Source of the DNA: an uncultured Chthoniobacter sp.
GTDB lineage: Bacteria > Verrucomicrobiota > Verrucomicrobiia > Chthoniobacterales > UBA6821
Direction of reading: 5' to 3'
Length of the DNA: 64,000 nucleotides
Assembly: GCA_964402065.1 (NCBI GenBank)
Contig: CAYOAN010000007.1
Span: 21,174-85,173, forward strand
Positions 1 to 15,362 of the stretch are shown in pieces. The stretch's first letter is position 1; each line of letters begins with the position of its first letter. The translations under genes and the position numbers were made by a program. The notes under the pieces are model-generated. The model was not told where the DNA came from, made no database searches, and saw only the letters and a list, made by a program, of their open reading frames with translations.

Positions 1-40
1 CTTTTTCAATTTAATACACGATAAGACCAAAGCACGTTGG

Positions 41-1045
41 CTATAAAAGCAACTCCGCTATTTGCACCGCATTGAGCGCCGCTCCCTTGAGAAGCTGATC
101 CCCACAAACCCAAAGAACAAGAGCATTTGGGAGAGCCGTATCAATTCGCAGCCTACCAACATGACACTGATCGAGACCTTGTACTGCTAGCGGCATGGGA
201 TAAAGTGCCTGGGTCGGCTCATCGATAAGGTCAACTCCAGGAGCAGCCATCAAAATATCCTGAGCTCTCTCAATCGAAACTGATTTTTCAAACTCTGCAT
301 GCAGCGCAATGGAATGAGCACGATACACAGGAACACGCACACAAGTGACAGAAGTTTGCAACTTGGGAAGATGAAGAATTTTACGGCTCTCATTTTGAAA
401 CTTCATCTCCTCCTTCGTATAACCACTCTCTAAAAAGCTATCGACATGAGGCAAAAGATTAAAAGCAATCTGATGAGGGTAGACTTCTTTTGGTACAAGC
501 TCACCTCGAGAAAGGCTTTCTACCTGACTACGGAGTTCTTCAACAGCACGCGCTCCCGTCCCTGAAACAGCCTGATATGTTGAGGCAATCACGCGCTTTA
601 AGCTGAAATGCTGATGCAAAGGAGCCAGGGCCATGAGCGCAATGGCCGTCGAGCAATTTGGATTAGCAATAATTCCACAATGATTTTTTATATCAGCAGG
701 GTTAATCTCCGGAATAACAAGAGGCACTTGATCATCCATGCGAAAAACTGATGAGTTATCGATCACAACAGCTCCAGCACGCACCGCATGTGGTGCAAAC
801 TTTTTTGAAACCTCTCCCCCTGCACTAAAAAAAACAATATCAATTCCTTTAAAACTTCCCTCCTCTAACACGTCCACTGGAATTTTTTCACCTCGAAAAC
901 TCAGTGAGACGCCAGCTGAACGAGGCGATGCAAGCAAGCGCAGCGAGGCAACTGGAAAACTGCGACGTTCTAATACGCGCAGCAATTGCTCACCGACAGC
1001 TCCAGTTGCGCCAACGATGGCAATTTTTTTAGAAAAAGGTTTCAT
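41..1045 (-). CDS. asd: Aspartate-semialdehyde dehydrogenase
   Basis: N-terminal GATGAVG NAD-binding motif, IANPNCST catalytic Cys motif, STYQAVSGTG, WVCGDQLLKGAALNAVQIAE C-terminus. Confidence 0.97.
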   Translation of the reverse strand: MKPFSKKIAIVGATGAVGEQLLRVLERRSFPVASLRLLASPRSAGVSLSFRGEKIPVDVLEEGSFKGIDIVFFSAGGEVSKKFAPHAVRAGAVVIDNSSVFRMDDQVPLVIPEINPADIKNHCGIIANPNCSTAIALMALAPLHQHFSLKRVIASTYQAVSGTGARAVEELRSQVESLSRGELVPKEVYPHQIAFNLLPHVDSFLESGYTKEEMKFQNESRKILHLPKLQTSVTCVRVPVYRAHSIALHAEFEKSVSIERAQDILMAAPGVDLIDEPTQALYPMPLAVQGLDQCHVGRLRIDTALPNALVLWVCGDQLLKGAALNAVQIAELLL

Positions 1046-1257
1046 GAAACGGGAAAAGAAAAAATTAAACAGAAAGTTTTCAAGGCTGCAACCCTACTCC
1101 AACAAATTATGCAATGTCCTAGCAATGTCGTCGTTTAAAAACAATACTGCTTATAACAAAAGAAAGGATGACCTTTCTAAGGCAAATGACTTGTGCTTAT
1201 GCTCTATGCTTGCCTCCTAAAATTCTTGAACCCTTACTATTTCTCTCTTCTACTTTT

Positions 1258-1773
1258 ATGGTGACTGTTGTTACTTCAAGCCCTCTTAAAAAACGACCTC
1301 CAGCTTCGTTATGCTACCTTAAAATTTCCATCGCCACTCAAACCTTAGAGCTTTTTGAGCAGAGAGACGATGAAGCAGCTACTAGCCTGGCACGCTATCC
1401 TATCTCCAGCTCTAAGTTTGGATTAGGAACAGAACCTGGCACTAACAAGACTCCGCTCGGAAATTTTTTCATCGCAGAAAAAATTGGTGATGATCAGCCA
1501 GAATGGATGATTTTTAAATCGAGAAAACCAACAGGAGAAATTGCTACCTTTGGAGGCGACTTAGACCAGGTCCTCACCCGCATCCTCTGGCTCAGCGGAC
1601 TCGACCCTGACAATCAAAACACCCATGACCGCTACATCTACATCCATGGCACCAATCAAGAAAACCTCATCGGAACCCCTGCTAGCCACGGCTGTATTCG
1701 GATGCTTAACGCTGATATGGTTGCATTATTTGATCAAGTAGCAGTCGAAGATCATGTGGAGATTGTTATTTGA
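1258..1773 (+). CDS. L,D-transpeptidase (YkuD family)
   Basis: YIYIHGT...GTPASHGCIRM catalytic motif; ATG at 1258 preferred over the ORF-track start at 1168. Confidence 0.85.
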   Translation: MVTVVTSSPLKKRPPASLCYLKISIATQTLELFEQRDDEAATSLARYPISSSKFGLGTEPGTNKTPLGNFFIAEKIGDDQPEWMIFKSRKPTGEIATFGGDLDQVLTRILWLSGLDPDNQNTHDRYIYIHGTNQENLIGTPASHGCIRMLNADMVALFDQVAVEDHVEIVI

Positions 1774-1776
1774 ACC

Positions 1777-4700
1777 CTAGCCCTTGCACTCTGTTTGCTG
1801 TTGCCGCATACTTTGTTTCTTTTGTTTTTCCATTTTTTTCTCCAAGGAAAGCCTTTTTGCTTCCTCAAGCAGTTTTTCAGTTTCTTCTGTGTCAATTTTT
1901 TCTTTTGTTTTTAGGCAAGTTGGCTCTTTACTCAGTGCTCTTGCTAAATCGAGACGGCCTGACGCGACAGCAATTGTAGGATCTTCTTTATTAGCCGTCT
2001 CTTCAAGATGCTCCACGATTTTTTGAGGTGAAAGATTATTGAACTTTCTCATGACCCATGCAGCTGCTGCTGCCACTTGAGGTGCTGCCATCGAAGTACC
2101 AGCGAGTTCCCGATAAACTGCATCTCCCGCAAATGAAGCTGAAATAATTCCTTTCCCTGGTGCTGCTATTTGAATACTTTGTTTTCCGTAATAAGAAAAG
2201 TTGGCCAGATTTCCTTTTGGATTAGTGGCTGCCACAGCAATACCATTAGGCAATGAAAAGCTTGCTGGATAAGAAGGCCAATCATCTTTATTACGTTTCT
2301 CTGTGCCCTGCCCTTTTCTCAAATTGCCAGCTGCCATCACAGCAAGAACGGGAGGAGCAAATTGTTGAGGATCATAAGAACTCCATTCACCTTGCCCTTC
2401 TTTTCTTAAAATTTCATACGGATTGCTTAAAGCTTGCTTCAAACTTTCCAAATTTTTTTGTGAAAGCTCTCCCTCGTCATCACGACTGCCACCCCAACTG
2501 CAATTGATAATTCTTGCTCCTTGTTCACGTGCATATCGTAAGCACTCGAGAGTGCGATCTACGAAACCTTCTGTTTGACCTGGCTCCATATTTTTACAAA
2601 TAAGAAGTGCTGCAATATCGCGCACGCTAGCAATGCCACGGATAGTTGCTCGCGTGATCTCATTGAGTTCAAAAACAGTAGGTTCCTGTTCAGAGTTTTT
2701 CTTTTTCTTTACCTCAACTTCTTCGACCTCATGCGGAAGACCAACGATAATTCCTGCAACATGAGTTCCATGCCCCGTATTATCTCGAGGTAAACCCCTA
2801 TAATCAGGATGAATCGCACAAGCATTGTATCCGTAAGAAACTTCCTCATCCTCATCTTCTTCAACGACAATTTTATTTTCAAAAGCTTGGTGACTTTCTC
2901 TAATTCCGCTATCTACAACACCAATACGAATAGGTGTTCCTTCTGCCACAATGGGCTCTTCTGTATTGAATAAAGTGTCAGGAGGATTGACTCCAAATAA
3001 GGAGTGTAAATACCAGGGTTGTGTTATTTCTGTTCTTGCTGTTTCAGAAATTTTAGAAGAGGCAAGTTCTATGAGAGTAGAAGGATAACAATCAGCAGCT
3101 AAGTTTTTTTCTTCAATCGCTTTTTTTATTTGATCAAATAACGTTAGTAGAGGGGGCTGATCCGCAGCAGCCAGAGCAGAAGCAGCGCTCTTAAAGTTAA
3201 GTCGATAGAGGTATTGTTCTGGCGCAACTGATTCTAGTGTCAAATGATTGTTCGGAAAATCTTCTTTTAAGCTTTCTAAAAGGGTAGCTCTTTGAATGCT
3301 TGAATTCAATTTGACCATCAAATATTCAGCTGCCATTTTGATTTCCCGAAGAATCTCTCCGTTGGCAGCCGTTGTTCTTTCAATTCTCAACAGCGGCCCG
3401 ACAAATCTTCTTTTATAAATCAAACTGATTTTTTTTGTGCTATCAGATTGTACTTCTTCTCGTGATTCGAGGTAGCTTGATGCTTCGGTTGAATAATCTC
3501 TCTTCCATGCGGCCATTGCGCTTTCTAAAGAACTAAGATGTTGTCGCGCGCTTTCATTCCGCGCCTCAAGAGCGAAAATCTTTTGCTCAAAATTTTTAAC
3601 TGTTGCCTCATCTCCTTGTCCATAGGCTTCTTGAACCTTTCCAAGATGGTTTTGAATAACTTTCAGCCTTCTCGCAATGGCATCCCACGTCTCGCCAATC
3701 TCATTTCTCTCCTCTTGATCTGCTAAACGACGGCATTCCACAGCCTCCTCTATATTTTTCTTCAGTTCTTTCTTTTTACTCAAGAGCTCCAATTCCAATT
3801 CAATTTGATTCAGCTTCGCCTCCCAATCTCTTACACTCTGCTTGAGTCTTGGCTTAATTCTCATTCCCAAACGTCGGATTTTCCCTCCGACAGCATCTCT
3901 CAGTCTTGTGTAAAACATTTCTGTTTCACTCCAAATTTGAACAGCTTCTTCTGCTATCCTAATAGCATTATGGTAATGTTGACATGATTCAGGAATTCTT
4001 GCTTGAGCATAAGACTGGTCTGCATAAGAGCACCAACGTGCAGCAATATCCTCCCATTTTCTTTTGATTGTATTGCGAAAGTTTGTTTTCTTTCTTTCTA
4101 ATTCTTCGATAAACTCAGAATTCAATTCCACTTCACCTTTAGCTTGTTGAAGGAGGGTCCGTATTTTCTTTCGTATCTCCTGTTGGTGTGCTTGTGTTAC
4201 ACTCAGTTGGCTATCAATTAGCGACGAAGAAACATGAGAAGTTGCTAAAAAAGTTTCCAGCCTGTCTTTTAACGAGTTTGACATGAAAGAACTGGAGGCT
4301 GTCACAGCTGAAGCAGCGCTCATACCGACGACTCCTCCCCCAGGAGGAGCAGTTAAAGCATCAGCCAACTTCAAAGAAGCCATTGGTTTTATAATGCTAC
4401 TAACCGAGGAAGCCACACTACTATTATCATCCTCATCAGTAGTTAGTCCAATTTCACGCTTTTCAATCTCATCTTGAAGTTTTGAAAAAAGGTCATCCCA
4501 GCCCAGCCATATTTCACGACACTTACTTACAAGACTTCTTAATTTTTGATCTTCCTCTAGTGAGGATCGCTCTCCGCTCTCTAGGCTTGTTCTCAAGAGA
4601 TCTGTTCCATTTTTTTTCTGTTTAACCCAATAGTGAATTTGCTCCTCTACTTTAAGAGACTCTATCCTCAAGCTTTCGTTATCAAGAGACTCAACGTTGA

Positions 4701-5037
4701 CAGTACTAAGAACAGCCTTTAACTCCTCTGATGCTTGGTTAATAAATAAAAAACTTCTATCAAGTTTATCAGCAGAGAAGCTTAAATCTTCCCTTCCACT
4801 CATCATATCGCCTCGCTCCTCGTTACTAGAAAAATCTTCTGTTACATCATCAGTCAGTCTTCTTCCTTGGTTCTCTAGATCTTCTGCTACGAGCCTTTTT
4901 GCTTCCTGTTCTTCAATCTGCGCTTTCTCACTTCCTTTTCCTTTCCACAGTGGCTTCGGAGGCATAGCCTGCAACGAAGCCAGAGGGGCTCCCCAAAAAA
5001 TTGCCATGAGGAAAGAAAGAAAGAATTTATTTTTCAT
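1777..5037 (-). CDS. Secreted S8 subtilase with a long acidic/coiled-coil N-terminal extension
   Basis: Signal peptide MKNKFFLSFLMAIFWGAPLASLQA; catalytic triad GVVDSG / HGTHVAG / GTSMAAP and oxyanion AAGN in the C-terminal third. Confidence 0.87.
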   Translation of the reverse strand: MKNKFFLSFLMAIFWGAPLASLQAMPPKPLWKGKGSEKAQIEEQEAKRLVAEDLENQGRRLTDDVTEDFSSNEERGDMMSGREDLSFSADKLDRSFLFINQASEELKAVLSTVNVESLDNESLRIESLKVEEQIHYWVKQKKNGTDLLRTSLESGERSSLEEDQKLRSLVSKCREIWLGWDDLFSKLQDEIEKREIGLTTDEDDNSSVASSVSSIIKPMASLKLADALTAPPGGGVVGMSAASAVTASSSFMSNSLKDRLETFLATSHVSSSLIDSQLSVTQAHQQEIRKKIRTLLQQAKGEVELNSEFIEELERKKTNFRNTIKRKWEDIAARWCSYADQSYAQARIPESCQHYHNAIRIAEEAVQIWSETEMFYTRLRDAVGGKIRRLGMRIKPRLKQSVRDWEAKLNQIELELELLSKKKELKKNIEEAVECRRLADQEERNEIGETWDAIARRLKVIQNHLGKVQEAYGQGDEATVKNFEQKIFALEARNESARQHLSSLESAMAAWKRDYSTEASSYLESREEVQSDSTKKISLIYKRRFVGPLLRIERTTAANGEILREIKMAAEYLMVKLNSSIQRATLLESLKEDFPNNHLTLESVAPEQYLYRLNFKSAASALAAADQPPLLTLFDQIKKAIEEKNLAADCYPSTLIELASSKISETARTEITQPWYLHSLFGVNPPDTLFNTEEPIVAEGTPIRIGVVDSGIRESHQAFENKIVVEEDEDEEVSYGYNACAIHPDYRGLPRDNTGHGTHVAGIIVGLPHEVEEVEVKKKKNSEQEPTVFELNEITRATIRGIASVRDIAALLICKNMEPGQTEGFVDRTLECLRYAREQGARIINCSWGGSRDDEGELSQKNLESLKQALSNPYEILRKEGQGEWSSYDPQQFAPPVLAVMAAGNLRKGQGTEKRNKDDWPSYPASFSLPNGIAVAATNPKGNLANFSYYGKQSIQIAAPGKGIISASFAGDAVYRELAGTSMAAPQVAAAAAWVMRKFNNLSPQKIVEHLEETANKEDPTIAVASGRLDLARALSKEPTCLKTKEKIDTEETEKLLEEAKRLSLEKKMEKQKKQSMRQQQTECKG

Positions 5038-5178
5038 CGCTGAAAAATAGATGTTCTTAAAAAAATTTGAAGCGTGAATTGTTAAATTTTTTCAAATTTC
5101 TTTTTTACTCTTATCAAAACTCCCTCTACAGTGAAGTCACATTAAGCAACCTGCTTTTGAAAGGAGGCGAAATTATTT

Positions 5179-5295
5179 ATGAAAATCACCAAAATCGTTG
5201 CAGCTATCATCCTTCTTGGAACAGCTGCTGTTACACTTGGCGCATGTTGTCACAAACAAGCTCCAGCTCCAGCAACAACTGGTCGCTGCAAGTAA
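5179..5295 (+). CDS. 38-aa small lipoprotein, not in the ORF track
   Basis: AAGGAGG Shine-Dalgarno at 5161-5167; MKITKIVAAIILLGTAAVTLGACCHKQAPAPATTGRCK with basic N-region, hydrophobic core and LGAC lipobox; followed by a terminator. Confidence 0.7.
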   Translation: MKITKIVAAIILLGTAAVTLGACCHKQAPAPATTGRCK

Positions 5296-5324
5296 AACAC
5301 TCTTAACCGAGTGTGATCACTTGT

Positions 5325-5364
5325 GAAGGTCGAATTACTTTTGTAATTCGGCCTTCTTTTTTTT
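5325..5364 (+). terminator. Rho-independent terminator between convergent genes
   Basis: GAAGGTCGAATTAC-TTTT-GTAATTCGGCCTTC stem (one G-U pair) followed by T8. Confidence 0.8.
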
Positions 5365-6124
5365 AGAGGCCTGTTGGATGGTCGATAAAAGACCATGGCA
5401 ACTTAAACTCCTCTTCTAATACGCCTCCTAGCGCCTTTACTCCAAAAGTTTCTGTCGCATAGTGTCCCGCATAGATTAAGTTGATCCCAAGTTCCTCTGC
5501 CATCGTGTAACTCCAGTGAGGTCCTTCACCAGTCACAAATGTATCAACGCCTTCCTGTGCTGCAGCAGCAACCTCACTCCCAGCACCCCCTGTTACAACA
5601 AGCACCTTATGCACTGTTTCAGAACCACCAGGAGCAAGGTGAACTTTTCCTGCAACAGCATTACTCACCAACTCTAAAAAAGGAGCACGCAAGATGGGTT
5701 TGCAAGTTCCTTTAAGCCCAATGAACTCACCTTGCATTTTCAAAGCGGGAGTCAGTTTTTGAATTCCAAGTTTTTGAGCAAGAATCAAATTATTGCCAAC
5801 TCTTGGATGCCGATCGAGTGGTAAGTGTGAACTATAAATAGCAAGGCCATGCTCGATGGCTAATTTTAATTTTTGATAATAGGCTCCTGTAATAGGCTGC
5901 AAGCCGCTCCAAAAGAGCCCATGATGGACAATCAAAAGATCTGCCTCAACTTCAATTGCCTGTTCAATGGTAGATAAGCAAGCATCTACAGCAACAGCAA
6001 CACGTTTGACTTCTCCCCCATTAGCAAGCTGTAGCCCATTGTGTGCCTGAGGATAGTCACGCACTTCGGTGGTTGATAGCAATTGATCGAGATAATTGAC
6101 GATAGTAAAAAGTTGCATCAGCAA
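5363..6124 (-). CDS. Nif3-like dinuclear metal-centre protein (YbgI/DUF34 family)
   Basis: NGLQ, VAVAVDA, LLIVHHGLFW, HLPLDRHP, FVTGEG, GHYATETFGVKAL motifs. Confidence 0.93.
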   Translation of the reverse strand: MLMQLFTIVNYLDQLLSTTEVRDYPQAHNGLQLANGGEVKRVAVAVDACLSTIEQAIEVEADLLIVHHGLFWSGLQPITGAYYQKLKLAIEHGLAIYSSHLPLDRHPRVGNNLILAQKLGIQKLTPALKMQGEFIGLKGTCKPILRAPFLELVSNAVAGKVHLAPGGSETVHKVLVVTGGAGSEVAAAAQEGVDTFVTGEGPHWSYTMAEELGINLIYAGHYATETFGVKALGGVLEEEFKLPWSFIDHPTGL

Positions 6125-6208
6125 AGGTTATAGCTTCGATATTACAGGTTACAGGAAAAAAAATTCTTCACACTTTACTCACGACTCGTGACTCATTACT
6201 TTATTGAG

Positions 6209-7327
6209 ATGTTACGCGCTGGAATTGTTGGACTCCCTAATGTCGGAAAATCAACCCTCTTCAATGCACTCACTCGGAGTCGCAAGGCAGAGGCTGCTAA
6301 TTTTCCATTTTGTACTATTGAACCTAATGTTGGCATGGTCACCGTGCCAGATGCACGATTAGCTCGGTTAGCTGAGCTTGTGAATTCGCAAAAAATTATT
6401 CCTGCAGCGATTGAAGTCGTTGACATCGCAGGCCTCGTTAAAGGTGCGAGTGAAGGAGAAGGCCTCGGAAACCAATTTTTAGGCCACATCCGTGAGGTTG
6501 ATGCGATTATTCAAGTTGTCCGCTGTTTTGATAACGAAAACATTCATCACGTTGCCGGCAACATTGACCCGATTCGTGATATTGAAATCATTAATACCGA
6601 ATTAATCCTTGCTGATATTGCCGCTGTTCAAAAAAGAATCGAACGCCAAGCTAAGGCCGCTCGCACCGGAGATAAAACAGCGAAAGCAGAAATTGCGCTT
6701 GGTGAAAAATTACTTCCTCACCTTAACAATGGTGCACCAGCATCCACGATTGAGCTTTCAGCAGATGAACAGAAAATTTTATCAACCTTTCACCTCTTGA
6801 GTGCAAAGCCAGTGCTTTTCGCAGCGAACGTCGAAGAGCAAGATCTCTCACACCTCAATGATGAAAATCGACCCGCGATCAAGTCGGTGCGTGCTGTCGA
6901 AGAATACGCTAAAGCTCATTTTGGGACTTCTACGGTTGTCATCAGCGCTCAAATTGAAAGTGAGCTCGCTGAGCTTTCACCCGAAGATGCAGCGGAATAT
7001 CTAGCTGGACTTGGCTTAAGCGACAGTGGCGTTGGTCTCCTTATTCGCAAGGCTTACGAACTCCTCGGGCTCCGGACCTATTTTACTTATGGTCCTAAAG
7101 AGACTCGTGCTTGGACGATCCATGCTGGCGACAAGGCTCCTGCAGCCGCTGGCGTTATTCATAGCGATTTCGAACGCGGATTTATCGCTGCAGAAACCAT
7201 GGCTTATGATGATCTCAATGCACTCGGTTCTGCCGCAAAATGCCGTGAAGCAGGCAAGCTCCGCATTGAAGGAAAAGAGTACGAAGTGAAAGATGGAGAT
7301 GTATTAGAATTTCGGTTTAACGTTTGA
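6209..7327 (+). CDS. ychF: Redox-regulated ATPase YchF
   Basis: [39 protein letters not shown]-terminal TGS domain ending [18 protein letters not shown]. Confidence 0.97.
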
Positions 7328-9565: not shown

Positions 9566-10585
9566 ATGACGATCAAAGAAGTACGAGCAGCAACGGGTAA
9601 TGGTGCTGCTTGCGAGGCAACTGTTGCTGCTCAAGCTGAGGCCGTCATTCGCAAAGAAACAGCCGCAGGAAAACCTTATTACGAGTTATTACTAAGGGAT
9701 GCTACAGGCACTTTAATGCTGCGTGCTTGGAACGACCGCCCTTCCTTTACTGCGTGCCAAGAAATCGCGTCGGGATCCTTTGTGAAAGCTTCAGGAACTT
9801 TTGTACAAGGTTCCTTCGGACTTGATGCTGCTAACTGGAATCTTGAGCTCCTCTTAGAAGCAGAAATCACATCGCTCTTAGAAGGTTCACCCGAACAGCA
9901 AGCAGCTCATGAAGCTGCCTACCAAGTGATTCTCACAGGGATCGCTCAACTTCAAGATCCAAGGCTTCAGCAACTCTGCGAGAAATTTTTAAATCAATAT
10001 GGCTCCCGCTTTCGCCGTGCAGCTGCCGCTCGCAACAACCACCATGCGCGACGTGGCGGCCTCCTTGATCATACAGCACGCATGATGCAGTCAGCCCAGG
10101 CATTGCTGCCAGTTTACTCTAACCTTAACGCTGATCTCTTAATTGCAGGTATTCTTTTCCATGATGTAGGAAAACTTTGGGAAACATGCCCACCTGCTCA
10201 AGGTTTTGGAATTTCTCCCGACTTGCGCGGAGAATTAATGGGACATCTCTCCATTGGTATTGAAATCGTCAATTCATTATGGCGAGAACTTCCCAAACAA
10301 GGCTGGGATCAACTAGAACCAAACTCTGAAGAAGTGCGCCTTCATTTACTCCATCTTATTGCGGCTCATCACGGCCAACTCGAATTTGGATCCCCGGTAT
10401 TGCCAAAAACGCCAGAAGCTATTGCACTTCATCTCATCGACAATATGGATGCACGCTTGGAAATGTTTGAGGAGGCCTACGCAAAAAATCAAGAAACCTC
10501 ATCAGGAATTTTTGAATGGTCAAGACCTCTCGGCGTTGCTCCGATTGCTCCTTTAAAAAGATGTTACAGTCTTGAAAATGGCTAG
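9566..10585 (+). CDS. OB-fold + HD-domain 3'-5' exoribonuclease (YhaM/Cbf1 family)
   Basis: N-terminal OB-like region, AAARNNHHARRGGLLDHT, ILFHDVGK, GELMGH, HLIAAHHGQLEFGSPVLPKTPEA, IDNMDAR. Confidence 0.87.
   Translation: MTIKEVRAATGNGAACEATVAAQAEAVIRKETAAGKPYYELLLRDATGTLMLRAWNDRPSFTACQEIASGSFVKASGTFVQGSFGLDAANWNLELLLEAEITSLLEGSPEQQAAHEAAYQVILTGIAQLQDPRLQQLCEKFLNQYGSRFRRAAAARNNHHARRGGLLDHTARMMQSAQALLPVYSNLNADLLIAGILFHDVGKLWETCPPAQGFGISPDLRGELMGHLSIGIEIVNSLWRELPKQGWDQLEPNSEEVRLHLLHLIAAHHGQLEFGSPVLPKTPEAIALHLIDNMDARLEMFEEAYAKNQETSSGIFEWSRPLGVAPIAPLKRCYSLENG
10496..10559 (+). repeat. 64-bp direct repeat, copy 1 (left boundary of the FGE islet)
   Basis: 61/64 identical to 14449-14512; encodes the YhaM C-terminus on the + strand. 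Confidence 0.95.
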
Positions 10586-10939
10586 CCCGAATCTTGTTAC
10601 CAAGAAAATTATAAAGTCTGATGAGGCTGAGCTGGCGTAGCAGTTTGATGTGATCTCCCCCTCCTCTTTTCTTACCCTGCTCAACTCAACGTTTCTTTGT
10701 TTTGCCTCAACTATTCTTCCCTTGTCCGCTCGCCTTATCTAGTGAGAAAGCTCTTATACCATCTTTATGAATGAGCAGGACTATGAGCAGCAAGAAGTTT
10801 GGTGTGTGACAAGACCATCAGCGGTCAACAAGAACGGGGCCGATGGTCCAAATAAGGAAAGAAGGCTGGTATTAAACAAAAAGTGCAAGCGTATAGCGTA
10901 CCCTTATTGATTTGCTACGCTATAAGTAAAAAACTAATG

Positions 10940-10981
10940 GACTGGCACCAAAATACGCAATATCAGGGACTGACCCCTATT
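10940..10981. repeat. 42-bp REP-like element, copy 1
   Basis: GACTGGCACCAAAATACGCAATATCAGGGACTGACCCCTATT, identical to 58565-58606. Confidence 0.9.
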
Positions 10982-10989
10982 TTTTTAGG

Positions 10990-13900
10990 CTAAAGCATTA
11001 GTGGTATTGCGGGCAAAACGTATCGAAAGATACTATCAATTAACATTCCAATACCAATTCTAGGGTCGTTGTTTAAATTTGGTGATTCTAATTCGTAAGA
11101 TAGCACTTCATAGCCAGCAACCATTAACCCTAATGGAATAATAATTGCTGCCGCTGGTGATGCAAAAAACCCTACTGCAGCTGACTCAGCTGTTAAAGCA
11201 GATGCTGCGGCTGCTGCAGAAGCATCTGCGGCTGCTAGCTGACTCTCAGCTACAGCAAAAAGTTCTCCCTCCCCCATTGAGCTTAAATTTGGCAATTGTG
11301 TTGTCATCCTTGGCAAAGCTTGTGAGGTCGTTGCTTCTGCAGTTGGTATTACTCCCCCCCTCTCTCTTATGTAATTACTTAGCCACCCCCTACAAAACAG
11401 CCAGTAGCTTTGCATGCTACGCATATCACGATCAGCTGCTTGCAATACTGGTAATCTTCTACTTTGTATAGGTGAAAATAAAAAATCATAGATAGTTTTT
11501 ATCCATCCCGAAAACCATTCGCCTGCTTGCAGACCGAAGCAATTTGTTATTTTTTGAAAGATGTTAGAGAAGAGCGCTCCTAAAAAGTAAGTGAGAGAAT
11601 TATATATGTTTGCCAAGACCTCTCCGACGCTAACTCCTATTGTGTAGTATATGAAATTAAAAAACCATTCCCCTGTATTTGAAATAATTTTGGATGGAGT
11701 TTCTTTAAGATCATTCCAAATGGTATTTCCTGCGAACTCTATTGTTTTATAAAATGACTGTGCAAAGCTTGGCACTTGTAGTGCAGCTGGCTCCACATTG
11801 TAAACAACTCGGAAACCTAGTACACTATTAGCTTCTGTAGGTTCTTCAACAAAGAAGCGTGAGTAGCGCAGGTCTTCGTAGCCTTGCGATGCCCAAGAAC
11901 CACCACGAACAACAATCTTATCACTAGCACTAGCTGAAAGAGTGAGTGTCCATTGATTCACGTTCCCTGCCATATCATAAAGACCATAAGCGCTCTTTGT
12001 GCTTTCAAAAGTTCCAACGGGAGTCACGTAAGGCGCTGTCAATGTTGCAAAGCTTCGCCCTGTACAATAGTTAGCTGAATTAGTTGAAGTTTTATCGATA
12101 AGATTATTGTTAGGAACTTGATACGATCCAGTCCCAAAGGCTGCATAAAAGCCAGCGACCCCTAGTTGAGGCGGTTGGTAATAGGCTGCCTTGTACCATT
12201 GATCTTCTGTTGGAAGAAGCCACTTTGGATTATTTGTTGAAACTGTGAATACACCTGCCTCATCCGAGTTAAAAGACCCACTCTCTGTTACCCCAATAGT
12301 TTCATCTCCAAGAGGCTGGTCATTTTCTAGCCAATTACAAAATCTTAGTGCTGAAAACCAATTAACATAAGTGATTGGAAACTTTTCTCTGCCTGGCCAA
12401 GGAAAATAGCTAAATCCAACATTCGTATTTCCATAGCGCATAATGCAAGCAACATTAGTGTCTGAGGTCATCTCAGACTGATAGAGATGATGAGGATCTG
12501 AATGAGCGGCAACTGCATTTAAGAAGGCACAATATTGCTCTGCTGTAACATCATATTTTGAAATTTGATATCCCTTGGCAACCGATCCGCAGCTAATTGA
12601 ATCTGGTGACTTGTCTATGGGATTATTAGGATCTCGGATAGGAACCAGATCTTTCATGAGGTCGATATGAGTAACAATGGAAGAAGATGGTCTATTGCAA
12701 ACTACACGAAAGCCAATCAGCGGGCTTGCAGCTCCGGTACTAATGAGGTGAGCTTTTGAGCTTAGGTCATCACTACTCTCTGAGTTCCATGCCCCACCTT
12801 TGATAATGATATTATTTCCTGTTGCATCAAAGGTAGAAGTCCATTGACTAACCTCTCCTGCCATATCGTAAGCGCCCCAGGGACTCCGCGAATTACTGAA
12901 TGAGCCAACAGGCGTAATGCGAGGTTGTTTAAGAGTCGTGAATGATCCATGGAAACAATAATTAGCGCCGTTAACAGCAGTAGCCTCTGCCCATTGATTT
13001 TCTGGAGGGTTCATGCTTCCCGTCCCAAAGGCGCAATAGCTTCCAGGAATTTTATTATCACCTGCCGGCTGATAATAGGCTGCCTTATGCCACTGATCAT
13101 CTGTTGGCAAGGACCAGAGTGCTTCAGGTGAAAGGTTAGCCATGTTATTAGTAAAGGTGCTAGCACTAGCAAGATCATAGGAACCCTTTTCTGTTGCAGT
13201 GTCAGGTAGCCCCTCAGTTGGCTGTCCATTTTCTAGCCAGTTACAAAACCTTAATGCAGCATACCAACTGACATAAGTAATCGGAAATTTTTCTCGATCC
13301 TTTATTGTTGTATACGTATACCCACTAGCAGCATCGCCAGATCGCACAATGCAAGCAACATCAAGATCTGAGGACATATTTGTATTATAAAGTAAGTGAG
13401 GATCACTCTTCTTTGCTACGGCATTGAGGAAAGCACAGTACTCCTCAGCAGTGACATCATAAGCTCCAATTTGATAAGGCATTGCAACAGAGCCCGCTCC
13501 TGTAGCACTACCGAGAGGAGCATGGTTTTTTGCTACTCCAGAAGTATCAGGAGGGTTGTTAGGTGCTCCTACCTCAACAAGCCTAATATTAATTTGACTC
13601 GTGTTACTACTCGGTCCAACACCCCCCATGACTAGCGTGCTGTTTAAAAAGGAATTGTTAAAACTACTTTCGCGAAACGTTGAATGATACACCCCGTTCA
13701 GTGAGGAACAATTTCCCAAGCTACTATCGCCATTTAAAGTAGTTTCAGCGGGAGCAAGAGAAGTTCTGCTCTGATTATGAGTATCTGTTAAAGAAGGATT
13801 AAAAGTCGACGTCGCCATACAAAAACCAACATGTTCAAACGCAAGATAAGGATCATTATTTTGGACACTACTCTCTTGTCCGGTTGTATCGACAAGATAT

Positions 13901-14358
13901 TTTTCAGGGAGAAAAAAAGTTGCTCCAGGAACTAAAAAAAACCGAGAAACCTCAGCTCCTTGATCCAGTGCCGTTAAATCATAGGCCCCGGCCTCTGTTG
14001 TTTTGCTGTCCTGAAGACCGACCGGACCGTGCTGCGATTTCCAATTGCAATAGCGGATAGCTGAAAGTTGAGAAACATAGGTGATTGGAAGGGTTGCTTT
14101 CAACGGATTACAACTGTAGGAATAGTTCCCCGGATCGCCACTACGAGTAATAATGATCCCACTTTCTCCATTTTCTCCCATTTTAGGGTTATAAACCCCA
14201 TAAGTATCTGTTTTAGCAATGCAGTTTAAAAACTCAGTATACTCTGAAACCCTAATAATCGAAGTGCACTCAGAAGAACCAACTTGCTGGGAAAAAAGAG
14301 AACTCGCACAAAGCAATACTATACTAAAAAAAATTAAGATCTTTCGAAACCTAGTCAT
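10990..14358 (-). CDS. Secreted protein with three tandem FGE-sulfatase (SUMF1/EgtB/PvdO-like, C-type-lectin fold) modules and a hydrophobic C-terminal extension
   Basis: Signal peptide; repeated YDVTAE(E/Q)YCAFLNAVA, FPITYV(S/N)W, LPT(D/E)DQW(H/Y)KAAYY, YDMAG(E/N)V(S/N)QW, GG(A/S)W, GFRVV; the first module is degenerate. Confidence 0.85.
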   Translation of the reverse strand: MTRFRKILIFFSIVLLCASSLFSQQVGSSECTSIIRVSEYTEFLNCIAKTDTYGVYNPKMGENGESGIIITRSGDPGNYSYSCNPLKATLPITYVSQLSAIRYCNWKSQHGPVGLQDSKTTEAGAYDLTALDQGAEVSRFFLVPGATFFLPEKYLVDTTGQESSVQNNDPYLAFEHVGFCMATSTFNPSLTDTHNQSRTSLAPAETTLNGDSSLGNCSSLNGVYHSTFRESSFNNSFLNSTLVMGGVGPSSNTSQINIRLVEVGAPNNPPDTSGVAKNHAPLGSATGAGSVAMPYQIGAYDVTAEEYCAFLNAVAKKSDPHLLYNTNMSSDLDVACIVRSGDAASGYTYTTIKDREKFPITYVSWYAALRFCNWLENGQPTEGLPDTATEKGSYDLASASTFTNNMANLSPEALWSLPTDDQWHKAAYYQPAGDNKIPGSYCAFGTGSMNPPENQWAEATAVNGANYCFHGSFTTLKQPRITPVGSFSNSRSPWGAYDMAGEVSQWTSTFDATGNNIIIKGGAWNSESSDDLSSKAHLISTGAASPLIGFRVVCNRPSSSIVTHIDLMKDLVPIRDPNNPIDKSPDSISCGSVAKGYQISKYDVTAEQYCAFLNAVAAHSDPHHLYQSEMTSDTNVACIMRYGNTNVGFSYFPWPGREKFPITYVNWFSALRFCNWLENDQPLGDETIGVTESGSFNSDEAGVFTVSTNNPKWLLPTEDQWYKAAYYQPPQLGVAGFYAAFGTGSYQVPNNNLIDKTSTNSANYCTGRSFATLTAPYVTPVGTFESTKSAYGLYDMAGNVNQWTLTLSASASDKIVVRGGSWASQGYEDLRYSRFFVEEPTEANSVLGFRVVYNVEPAALQVPSFAQSFYKTIEFAGNTIWNDLKETPSKIISNTGEWFFNFIYYTIGVSVGEVLANIYNSLTYFLGALFSNIFQKITNCFGLQAGEWFSGWIKTIYDFLFSPIQSRRLPVLQAADRDMRSMQSYWLFCRGWLSNYIRERGGVIPTAEATTSQALPRMTTQLPNLSSMGEGELFAVAESQLAAADASAAAAASALTAESAAVGFFASPAAAIIIPLGLMVAGYEVLSYELESPNLNNDPRIGIGMLIDSIFRYVLPAIPLML

Positions 14359-14441
14359 CGGGAGGAAATGTTAAGGATATAAAAATTGATACTTTGATCT
14401 GAACTTCACAAAGGTAATAACAATTCTTTAAACTTCAAATT

Positions 14442-15362
14442 TTAAAATACCTCACCAGGAATTTTTGAATGGTCACGACCTTTCGGCGTTGCTCCGATTG
14501 CTCCTTTAAAAAAATATTGTGCCGCGAACAATAGTGTTAGATAAACTCTCCAACGGCTTATTTTCAACCTCTCTACATTGGGATGTTTTTTGAGTAATGC
14601 CAATGTTTGTTGCCCTAGAAGAAGAGGCAATGCAAAAGCAGCTTTCATTCGGCCCGGATTCAAAGCATTCACATAAATCCTTCCCTGCTGTAAGTATTTA
14701 TTAGCTTGCGTGTGATAAAACGCCTTTTCTTTTTCTAAAAAATAAAAGCGCTCTTGCCGCTGGTCGTGAGAAAAATCGCGCAAGAGGTTCACAAGTTGTA
14801 ATCCCTTTCCATAATCGACGGCTAAGTTTTCCAGCATTTTCAAAGAAGTTATAGCAAAATTTGGAAAAGCTTCATGCGCCAATCGCGTCAAAAATTCTCC
14901 CACCGAGCCTGCCACCAAATACAAATATTTTTCTAATTCATCTGCCGAAAAATTTTTCCGTTCTTGCTGATATCGAAGATCCATTAGCTGACCTTCTAAA
15001 ATTTTTTCCCAGACCTCGTTGATACAAGCAACTTCAAAAGCACTATATTTCTCACTTTGGAGCAATGCTAACATTTCAGGAAGTTGTTCTATTAATTGTT
15101 GCTCTTGTTGAGAAAAATTTTTCCACTGTTCGCTTTTTTTCCAAAGCAACAAGCCCTCTGCCTTTCCTTTCGCAACCGACTTCAACAAGGTCAAAGTTTT
15201 TTCTCGCTCAGAAAAAGAGATTTTTCCCTCGTCAGCAATGGTGTCAGAGGCACGCGCCAAGAGATATGCTAGTGCTACCGGTTCGCAAATTTTTGAAGGA
15301 AGCAACCAAACCGTCAGATAAAAAGAACGCGCCACACTTTTTAATAATGGAAAAACTCTCAT
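14442..15362 (-). CDS. Squalene/phytoene synthase family protein
   Basis: LLKSVARSFYLT, AYLLARASDTIADE, YLYLVAGSVGEF, GKGLQLVNLLRD. Confidence 0.85.
   Translation of the reverse strand: MRVFPLLKSVARSFYLTVWLLPSKICEPVALAYLLARASDTIADEGKISFSEREKTLTLLKSVAKGKAEGLLLWKKSEQWKNFSQQEQQLIEQLPEMLALLQSEKYSAFEVACINEVWEKILEGQLMDLRYQQERKNFSADELEKYLYLVAGSVGEFLTRLAHEAFPNFAITSLKMLENLAVDYGKGLQLVNLLRDFSHDQRQERFYFLEKEKAFYHTQANKYLQQGRIYVNALNPGRMKAAFALPLLLGQQTLALLKKHPNVERLKISRWRVYLTLLFAAQYFFKGAIGATPKGRDHSKIPGEVF
14449..14512 (+). repeat. 64-bp direct repeat, copy 2 (right boundary of the FGE islet)
   Basis: 61/64 identical to 10496-10559; encodes the synthase C-terminus on the - strand. Confidence 0.95.

What the first reader, a model, noticed from the sequence alone, without database searches (positions are those of the whole stretch)
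10496..14512. 3.9-kb islet bounded by a 64-bp direct repeat that codes for two different genes on opposite strands
Seen: 10496-10559 and 14449-14512 match at 61/64 nt (offset 3953). The left copy encodes the YhaM-like C-terminus on + (SSGIFEWSRPLGVAPIAPL). The right copy encodes the squalene/phytoene synthase C-terminus on - (KGAIGATPKGRDHSKIPGE). Between them lie only the 1122-aa FGE gene and ~430 bp of non-coding DNA; there is no integrase or transposase. Inference: the two convergent genes originally overlapped at their 3' ends, and the insertion duplicated the overlap so that both stayed intact. The repeat is too long for a transposase TSD and looks more like attL/attR or recombinational capture. 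It could allow excision of the islet as a circle.
Basis: partly seen in the sequence, partly recalled or inferred. Interest (0 to 1): 0.68.

Follow-up and report, generated by a model that had tools for sequence, protein, structure and literature searches.

The report
Insertion that uncoupled two overlapping genes
In an uncultured Verrucomicrobium, a 3.9-kb piece of DNA carrying one exported-protein gene landed inside a ~105-base stretch where two facing genes overlapped on opposite strands, and 70 bases of that overlap were duplicated, so each gene kept its own working end.

Summary
The repeat is real. Positions 10496-10565 and 14449-14518 match at 65/70, there are only two copies in the genome, and both junctions recur in independent assemblies.

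A sister lineage (L142/L143) has the empty site. It holds one copy of the sequence, and the HD (YhaM-like) gene and the squalene/phytoene-synthase-family gene (SQS) overlap tail-to-tail by 115 nt. Its SQS has the same odd tail (GRDHSKIPGEV). Joining the window's two flanks rebuilds a gap-free, collinear site with both ORFs intact and a 105-nt overlap.

The insertion is young. The two copies show 0/23 differences at shared wobble sites, against 11/23 for either copy versus the sister. All five differences between the copies change an amino acid in one or both frames. Four lie in the left copy (now HD only) and one in the right copy (now SQS only). Each gene's last few codons were rebuilt from insert DNA.

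The cargo is a diverged member (58% identity or less to anything found) of an FGE-domain family expanded in this genus. No integrase, transposase, terminal inverted repeats, tRNA or pseudogene remnant lies in the islet. The genome has only two Xer-like recombinases, no serine recombinase and no Ku.

It is most likely a fixed insertion scar, not an active element.

The parts
9566..10585 (+). HD-domain (YhaM-like) gene, 339 aa. Conserved in 40/41 relatives through residue ~331.
10496..10565 (.). Left copy of the 70-nt duplication. It is the working 3' end of HD (conserved motif GIFEWSRPLGVAPIAPL). It carries 4 derived changes (10502, 10523, 10560, 10563).
10566..10585 (+). New HD tail (YSLENG plus stop) read from insert DNA. 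It replaces the ancestral tail CAANNSVR*.
10586..10989 (.). Non-coding spacer of the insert. It has no pseudogene remnant, tRNA or Rfam hit, and contains small dispersed repeats at ~10751-10813 and ~10878-10930.
10937..10983 (.). Half copy of a short palindromic MITE/REP-like repeat (~48 matches genome-wide) lying 6 nt past the FGE stop codon. Short-read contigs break here.
10990..14358 (-). Cargo gene FGE-i, 1122 aa. It has a signal-peptide-like N-terminus, two Pfam FGE-sulfatase domain matches (a ~0.9-kb internal DNA repeat suggests a weak third unit) and a hydrophobic C-terminal region.
14359..14448 (-). 5' flank of FGE-i, taken as the insert's right end. It supplies the last SQS codon and the TAA stop (14442-14444). 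Its length, and weakly its sequence, resemble MurJ-FGE intergenic regions.
14449..14518 (.). Right copy of the duplication. It is the displaced HD C-terminal fragment, now serving only as SQS codons ~282-305 on the - strand. It carries 1 derived change (14482).
14519..14546 (+). Relic of the ancestral HD tail (CAANNSVR*), antisense to the end of the conserved SQS core. Compare L142 HD ...KKYRSAPNNVT*.
14442..15362 (-). Squalene/phytoene-synthase-family gene (SQS), 306 aa. Its 21-aa C-terminal extension is shared only with L142.

Best explanation
This is the scar of one recent insertion that is now present in every available assembly of this species. In the common ancestor of this species and its sister (L142), the convergent HD and SQS genes overlapped tail-to-tail by ~105-115 nt, with the third codon positions of the two genes facing each other. 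The SQS gene had lost its usual stop codon, so its last ~21-25 codons ran antisense through the most conserved C-terminal motif of HD. After the two lineages split, a 3.88-kb segment (10566-14448) was inserted inside that overlap. It carries one diverged FGE-domain exported-protein gene with its own 5' flank, plus 0.4 kb of repeat-littered spacer. Seventy bases of the overlap were duplicated, one copy on each side. HD kept its conserved motif in the left copy and took 6 new terminal codons from the insert. SQS kept its whole tail in the right copy and took its last codon and stop from the insert. Any insertion here that did not duplicate the overlap would have truncated a gene, so selection explains why such a long duplication was the event that survived. 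I infer that the duplication arose in place, by fill-in of widely staggered breaks or by a replication template switch out to the donor DNA and back. I also infer that no dedicated recombinase was involved. The two copies, once bound by both genes' constraints, now each serve one gene and have begun to diverge. Shown here: the anatomy, the empty site, the polarity and youth of the event, the absence of mobility genes, and reproducibility. Inferred: the molecular mechanism, the source of the cargo gene, and the role of selection.
For: Empty site: L142 and L143 hold one copy, HD and SQS overlap by 115 nt, the SQS tail is ...GRDHSKIPGEVSEFFV* and the HD tail is ...KKYRSAPNNVT*. Joining the window's flanks gives a gap-free alignment to L142, with both ORFs intact and a 105-nt overlap. 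HD and SQS are adjacent with nothing between them in eight further lineages (G001, G003, G006, G009, G010, G012, L144, L146). No other genome has a second HD fragment. Age and origin: the copies differ at 0/23 shared wobble sites, while either copy differs from L142 at 11/23 (Fisher p=2e-4). Both copies therefore come from this lineage and are much younger than the split. Division of labour between the copies: the left copy has 4 derived changes, two of them radical in the SQS frame (G->D, R->L). The right copy has 1, which changes L->F in HD's conserved RPL motif but only R->K in SQS. No machinery: the islet has no recombinase ORF or remnant, no terminal inverted repeats and no tRNA or Rfam hit. 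The genome has only two ~300-aa Xer-like tyrosine recombinases, no serine recombinase and no Ku. The cargo was not copied recently from the resident paralogue. FGE-i is 58% identical or less to every homologue found, including the genome's own copy at C4. The structure is identical in assemblies from at least three projects.
Against: The mechanism is not observed directly. No donor locus for the cargo was found, so the insert's original flanks and any junction microhomology cannot be examined. Four derived changes in the functional left copy against one in the right is the opposite of the naive expectation for a resident versus a relic copy, though 4 vs 1 is not significant. Gene conversion between the copies could make the event look younger than it is. 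A decayed integrative element cannot be strictly excluded. Ku is absent, which removes classical end-joining as the route for a staggered-break model.
Confidence: 0.72

Rival explanations
1. Imported-end model. The insert arrived on DNA, taken up by transformation or as a circle, that already carried an HD 3' end. The donor would be a conspecific or very close strain in which FGE-i lies next to HD. It integrated by RecA through that homology, either as a Campbell-type single crossover or by homology-facilitated illegitimate recombination. The left copy is then donor DNA and the right copy is the resident original.
For: The right copy and its flank look ancestral: states matching L142 at 4 of 5 sites and a KKY... 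tail. The left copy carries the derived states, including a P->S change in a functional gene. A ComEC homologue is present. The anatomy matches e14/icd/icdC in E. coli, where the gene extends into the element and a C-terminal pseudogene lies at the far end (PMC13626634).
Against: The copies show zero differences at 23 wobble sites, and both share all 11 lineage-specific wobble states. The donor would have to be practically the same lineage, which only moves the origin of the duplication back one step. No genome or contig with a native HD-FGE-i adjacency was found.
Confidence: 0.15
2. Decayed integrative element. An integrase-type island with an attP that mimics the HD 3' end, like e14 or phage 21 at icd, integrated here. 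It later lost its integrase and most of its genes, leaving attL, attR and one cargo gene.
For: Imperfect direct repeats flank the islet. The target gene's end is rebuilt and a displaced fragment sits at the far side. The 404-nt spacer with a half MITE could mark an internal deletion.
Against: There is no recombinase or remnant in the islet. The genome has no non-Xer tyrosine recombinase and no serine recombinase. The site is not reused in 39 relatives. The cargo is a host-type gene of a genus-specific family with host-like G+C. An attP mimic matching the host at every wobble site is unlikely.
Confidence: 0.08
3. The islet is ancestral, and the single-copy site in L142 arose by deletion through recombination between the two copies.
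For: Recombination between 70-nt repeats, with identical runs of 20 and 30 nt, would leave exactly such a site.
Against: The copies are far younger than the split between this species and L142: 0/23 against 11/23 wobble differences. Nine lineages (L142 and the eight listed under the best explanation) lack the islet and none carries two copies. It would still require an earlier duplication in an overlapping ancestor.
Confidence: 0.03
4. The SQS tail is not real coding sequence. It is an annotation or read-through artefact, so the repeat codes for only one gene.
For: All relatives except L142 end SQS 21 residues earlier (...FLF*...LFW*). The tail is the antisense of a conserved HD motif, so its conservation between this genome and L142 needs no selection of its own.
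Against: The ancestral stop is absent in both this genome and L142. The A7 run is identical in four assemblies and in L142. Since the duplication, the right copy has kept the 21-codon frame open with one conservative change, while the left copy's antisense frame took two radical changes.
Confidence: 0.2

Closest known systems
e14 / phage 21 integration into icd of E. coli (icd plus the icdC C-terminal pseudogene)
   Same: A gene's 3' end is duplicated. The working gene extends into the inserted DNA, and the displaced original C-terminal fragment lies at the far end. Recombination between the copies would restore a hybrid gene (PMC13626634).
   Different: There is no integrase, excisionase or phage gene here, and the insert is 3.9 kb with one host-type gene. 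The copies match at all wobble sites, so they were not brought in by a foreign attP mimic. The duplicated stretch also serves a second gene on the other strand.
Target-site duplications of transposable elements
   Same: Direct repeats of target sequence flank an insertion that is absent from relatives.
   Different: The duplication is 70 nt, against roughly 2-15 nt for known bacterial transposases and casposases (from my own knowledge). There are no terminal inverted repeats and no transposase.
Homology-facilitated illegitimate recombination and Campbell-type insertion
   Same: Foreign DNA is added next to a homologous anchor without a dedicated recombinase, and this can leave a duplicated anchor.
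   Different: No donor is known, and zero wobble divergence between the copies argues against a diverged donor.
Replication-based template switching (FoSTeS/MMBIR-type insertional duplication) and microhomology-mediated duplication
   Same: An insertion of remote sequence is flanked by a duplication of tens of bases, and no recombinase is needed.
   Different: This is described mainly in eukaryotes and laboratory systems (from my own knowledge). Junction microhomology cannot be assessed here without the source locus.
Long antisense (convergent) gene overlaps in bacteria
   Same: Two ORFs share 105-115 nt on opposite strands with their wobble positions aligned. The overlap is seen intact in L142.
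   Different: Here the overlap has been undone by duplication, giving before and after states in sister lineages.

Membership tests
Integrase-mediated genomic island / prophage (attL/attR) | Direct repeats flank an insert that is absent from relatives | tested here: met
Integrase-mediated genomic island / prophage (attL/attR) | A tyrosine or serine recombinase is encoded in the element, or remnants of one | tested here: not met
   The FGE gene is the only protein-coding gene between the copies. Six-frame peptides of the spacer give no Pfam hit better than E=0.1.
Integrase-mediated genomic island / prophage (attL/attR) | A suitable recombinase is available in trans | tested here: not met
   The genome has only two ~296-306-aa Xer-like tyrosine recombinases and no PF00239 hit. 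The genome is 99.9% complete but lies in 14 contigs.
Integrase-mediated genomic island / prophage (attL/attR) | The same attachment site is used again in other genomes | tested here: not met
   Each of 39 relatives has one HD match. The two in G002 are halves of one gene.
Integrase-mediated genomic island / prophage (attL/attR) | Excision products exist (circle junction, empty junction) | not testable with these tools
Contigs show only the integrated form.
Transposon or insertion sequence | Short target-site duplication, terminal inverted repeats and a transposase | tested here: not met
   The duplication is 70 nt, no inverted repeat lies at the insert ends and there is no transposase ORF.
Convergent overlapping gene pair | Both ORFs are intact across a shared stretch in a single-copy genome | tested here: met
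   L142 and L143, two independent runs, are identical over the junction (-120 to +200 nt) and show a 115-nt overlap.
FGE-sulfatase (PF03781) domain proteins | The domain scores above Pfam's gathering threshold | tested here: met
   167 bits against a cut-off of 23.3, in two stretches. It falls below the cut-offs of every NCBIfam equivalog (GldK, GldJ, PvdO). Enzymatic function was not tested.
3'-5' exoribonuclease YhaM (NF010007) | The score reaches the equivalog cut-off | tested here: not met
   143.6 bits against a cut-off of 460. The HD domain is present, so 'YhaM-like' is a resemblance only.
Squalene/phytoene synthase (PF00494) | The domain scores above the gathering threshold, and the protein can be assigned to HpnC, HpnD or SQS | tested here: inconclusive
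   PF00494 scores 117 bits against a cut-off of 26. All the NCBIfam equivalogs score far below their cut-offs.

The most novel reading that the evidence does not exclude
The 21-25-residue SQS tail may be a functional peptide encoded antisense to HD's most conserved motif. In that case the insertion-plus-duplication released a real conflict between two proteins sharing the same bases. That would explain why all five differences between the copies change an amino acid while none falls on the 23 doubly silent sites. A further possibility is that the 70-nt repeats let the FGE cassette be lost and regained by RecA alone.
Probability: 0.15. Interest if true: 0.65.

Novelty: new variant of a known kind. 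Interest (0 to 1): 0.48.

Why it matters
Long antisense overlaps between bacterial genes are often dismissed as annotation errors, and how they are resolved is rarely seen. Here sister lineages preserve the before state (a 115-nt overlap) and the after state (a duplicated overlap with a gene in between), and the divergence can be dated and polarised. This gives a natural test of how two proteins constrain each other when they share DNA. It also shows that a long flanking direct repeat around a single-gene islet need not mean an att site. Selection for keeping both genes intact can, by itself, favour insertions that carry unusually long target duplications.

Tried and rejected
1. My first reading was that the SQS tail was read-through into a leftover HD fragment after the duplication, possibly from a 1-nt change or error in the A7 run. 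L142 refuted this: it has the same tail and the same A7 run in a single-copy site.

2. I looked for an orthologue or donor of FGE-i in 40 relatives and in the 5.8-billion-protein collection. Nothing exceeds 58% identity. The best hits (L118, L119, own C4 copy) are MurJ-linked paralogues or orthologues of the other copy.

3. The full-length tree grouped FGE-i with L118 and L119, but this came from a shared C-terminal module. The N-terminal 860 aa place FGE-i as a long branch outside the MurJ-linked clade.

4. Similarity between the FGE-i 5' flank and MurJ-FGE intergenic regions is marginal: z = 2.7, 0.4 and 3.2.

5. The spacer shows no integrase or other pseudogene remnants and no tRNA or Rfam family.

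6. A genome-wide search for sister islets with similar flanking repeats found none.

7. Searches of JGI metagenome contigs for an empty-site allele and for the islet junction both returned zero. The species is absent from that collection, so the result is uninformative.

8. Exact look-ups of HD, SQS and FGE-i recover only islet-bearing contigs.

10. The extension of the repeat to 82 nt is doubtful. It shows 5/12 mismatches, against 0/23 at wobble sites inside the core.
Full report
**Observation.** The direct repeat exists as described. Positions 10496-10559 and 14449-14512 match at 61/64, and the match continues to 10565/14518 (65/70). The sequence occurs exactly twice in the 1.81-Mb genome. 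A whole-genome self-comparison found no other low-copy 35-300-nt direct-repeat pair with kb-scale spacing outside paralogue arrays.

The left copy is the 3' end of a 339-aa HD-domain gene (9566-10585, +). The right copy is the 3' end of a 306-aa SQS_PSY-family gene (14442-15362, -). Between them lie:
- one 1122-aa gene with two FGE-sulfatase domains (10990-14358, -);
- 404 nt of non-coding DNA on its 3' side;
- 83 nt of non-coding DNA on its 5' side.

G+C content does not differ from the surroundings. The organism is an uncultured Verrucomicrobium of the Chthoniobacterales type (record titles).

**Not an artefact.** Exact-protein look-ups recovered independent assemblies from at least three projects. 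The right junction (FGE, right copy, SQS) is 100% identical in L130, L131 and L140. The left junction (HD, left copy, 384 nt of spacer) is identical in L132-L139. One low-coverage contig, L141, runs from HD across the spacer into the FGE gene. Short-read contigs break at 10937-10983, which is a half copy of a short palindromic repeat with ~48 matches genome-wide.

**The empty site.** In relatives, the HD C-terminal motif (GIFEWSRPLGVAPIAPL) is conserved to about residue 331 in 40 of 41 genomes. No other genome has a second HD fragment. HD and SQS are direct convergent neighbours in G001, G003, G006, G009, G010 and G012, and in L144 and L146. The arrangement ranges from a 432-nt spacer to a 33-nt overlap, and in all of them SQS ends ~21 residues earlier than here.

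On that basis I first read the SQS tail as read-through into a leftover HD fragment. That reading was wrong. The closest SQS relative (70% identity; its HD is 80% identical) lies on L142 and L143, two independent runs. There a single copy of the sequence sits where HD (341 aa...APLKKYRSAPNNVT*) and SQS (310 aa...YFFSGATGATASGRDHSKIPGEVSEFFV*) overlap by 115 nt.

Joining the window's flanks (up to 10565, then from 14519) gives a gap-free alignment to L142. In the joined sequence HD ends ...APLKKYCAANNSVR*, SQS ends ...GRDHSKIPGEVS*, and the overlap is 105 nt.

**What was duplicated.** The duplication covers 70 of the ~105 overlapping bases. The 28 nt at the HD-stop end (14519-14546) were not duplicated, so HD now ends with 6 insert-encoded codons (YSLENG*). 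At the other end, the last SQS codon and its stop (14442-14447) are read from insert-side sequence. In the overlap the third codon positions of the two genes face each other.

**Age and polarity.** At the 23 shared wobble sites the two copies differ at none. Either copy differs from L142 at 11 of them (Fisher p=2e-4). Both copies therefore derive from this lineage, and the duplication is much younger than the split from L142, unless gene conversion has homogenised them.

All five differences change an amino acid in at least one frame:

| Copy | Position | Effect in HD frame | Effect in SQS frame |
|---|---|---|---|
| Left | 10502 | P->S | G->D |
| Left | 10523 | silent | R->L |
| Left | 10560 | K->R | F->L |
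| Left | 10563 | Y->C | Y->H |
| Right | 14482 | L->F, in the conserved RPL motif | R->K |

Polarised with L142, four changes are derived in the left copy and one in the right copy. This is the pattern expected if each copy now answers to one gene only. The numbers are small.

**The cargo.** FGE-domain proteins are expanded in this genus, with 11-23 matches per genome against 0-2 in the neighbouring genus. FGE-i has no homologue above 58% identity in 40 relatives or in the large protein collection.

Its nearest relatives are the MurJ-linked copies: the genome's own at C4 (MurJ-FGE-aspartokinase), L118 and L119. Over the N-terminal 860 aa, FGE-i is a long branch outside that clade. Its ~260-aa C-terminal module is shared only with L118 (47% identity) and L119.

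The copies show no silent divergence while FGE-i is deeply diverged. The gene was therefore not made by a recent local duplication. It was relocated or acquired, most likely from an unsampled relative (inference).

**Mechanism.** Nothing in the islet or the genome points to a dedicated recombinase:
- no recombinase ORF or remnant in the islet;
- no terminal inverted repeats;
- no tRNA or Rfam hit;
- only two ~300-aa Xer-like tyrosine recombinases in the genome;
- no serine recombinase and no Ku.

ComEC is present. I therefore favour a one-off event independent of any dedicated recombinase, in which the target was duplicated in place by fill-in of widely staggered breaks or by a replicative template switch. 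Selection would have kept the rare outcome that left both genes intact.

There are two main rivals. The first is an imported homologous end, by Campbell-type insertion or homology-facilitated illegitimate recombination. It fits the ancestral look of the right copy, but it needs a practically conspecific donor. The second is a decayed e14-like island. It shares the anatomy of gene, element and displaced C-terminal pseudogene described for icd/icdC (PMC13626634), but it fails every machinery test.

The repeats contain identical runs of 20 and 30 nt, so RecA-mediated loss of the islet is conceivable. Scans of JGI contigs found neither junction, which shows only that the species is absent there.

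**Verdict.** The att-site and mobile-islet reading is not supported. This is a new variant of a known kind, a gene-end duplication around an insertion. It is of moderate interest as a dated before-and-after example of a long antisense gene overlap being undone.

Noticed in passing
window 10937-10983, plus ~48 other places in the genome (e.g. C1:292066-292215, C4:29126-29252, C6:153424-153549): A short repeat ending ...GGCACCAAAATACGCAATATCAGGGACTGACCCCT occurs singly or as head-to-head palindromic pairs of ~130 nt. It sits at contig ends (start of C5, end of C6) and breaks short-read assemblies. No transposase-sized full-length element was found.
   Followed up: partly
L119 (Logan SRR12900997), 1-6560: A close relative (MurJ 88% identical) has the order DUF362-SQS-MurJ-FGE-hom. 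Its SQS 3' flank is thus a second, independent rearrangement point that also brings an FGE-family gene downstream of SQS. The spacer after SQS contains a TTCTTTG(C/T)G repeat resembling part of the G009/G012 HD-SQS spacer (judged by eye).
   Followed up: partly
FGE-i residues ~860-1122 compared with P0004, P0006, P0009 and P0005: The MurJ-linked FGE orthologues carry one of two unrelated C-terminal modules, and these do not follow the N-terminal phylogeny. L118 pairs with the genome's C4 copy in the N-terminus but shares its C-terminal module with FGE-i. This suggests module swapping by recombination.
   Followed up: partly
L118 4190-4536: Between the FGE gene and aspartokinase lies a ~45-nt stretch resembling the 5' end of the homoserine dehydrogenase gene seen in L119. 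It may be a hom relic.
   Followed up: no
L035 (G008), L040 (G002), L036-L039: The gene downstream of HD differs among close relatives. In G008 it is a convergent 305-aa secreted-type ORF overlapping HD by 27 nt. In G002 the next large ORF is co-directional and was named aconitase-like only from its N-terminal sequence (no family search). G004, G005, G007 and G011 have unrelated genes there. The HD 3' flank is a synteny breakpoint in this genus.
   Followed up: partly
window ~10751-10813 and ~10878-10930: Two further small dispersed repeats (75-88% identity, 35-60 nt) recur in this genome and in G002, G003, G007 and G012. Their nature is unknown and they gave no Rfam hit.
   Followed up: no
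genome contigs C11 (6.3 kb) and C12 (4.9 kb): Their G+C content is 0.56-0.58 against 0.42-0.44 for the large contigs. They may be mis-binned contigs or foreign DNA in the MAG.
   Followed up: no
genus-wide: FGE-sulfatase-domain proteins give 11-23 matches per genome in this genus but 0-2 in the sister genus of the same family. This is a large lineage-specific expansion in ~1.2-3.4-Mb (mostly ~1.6-2.1-Mb) genomes.
   Followed up: no
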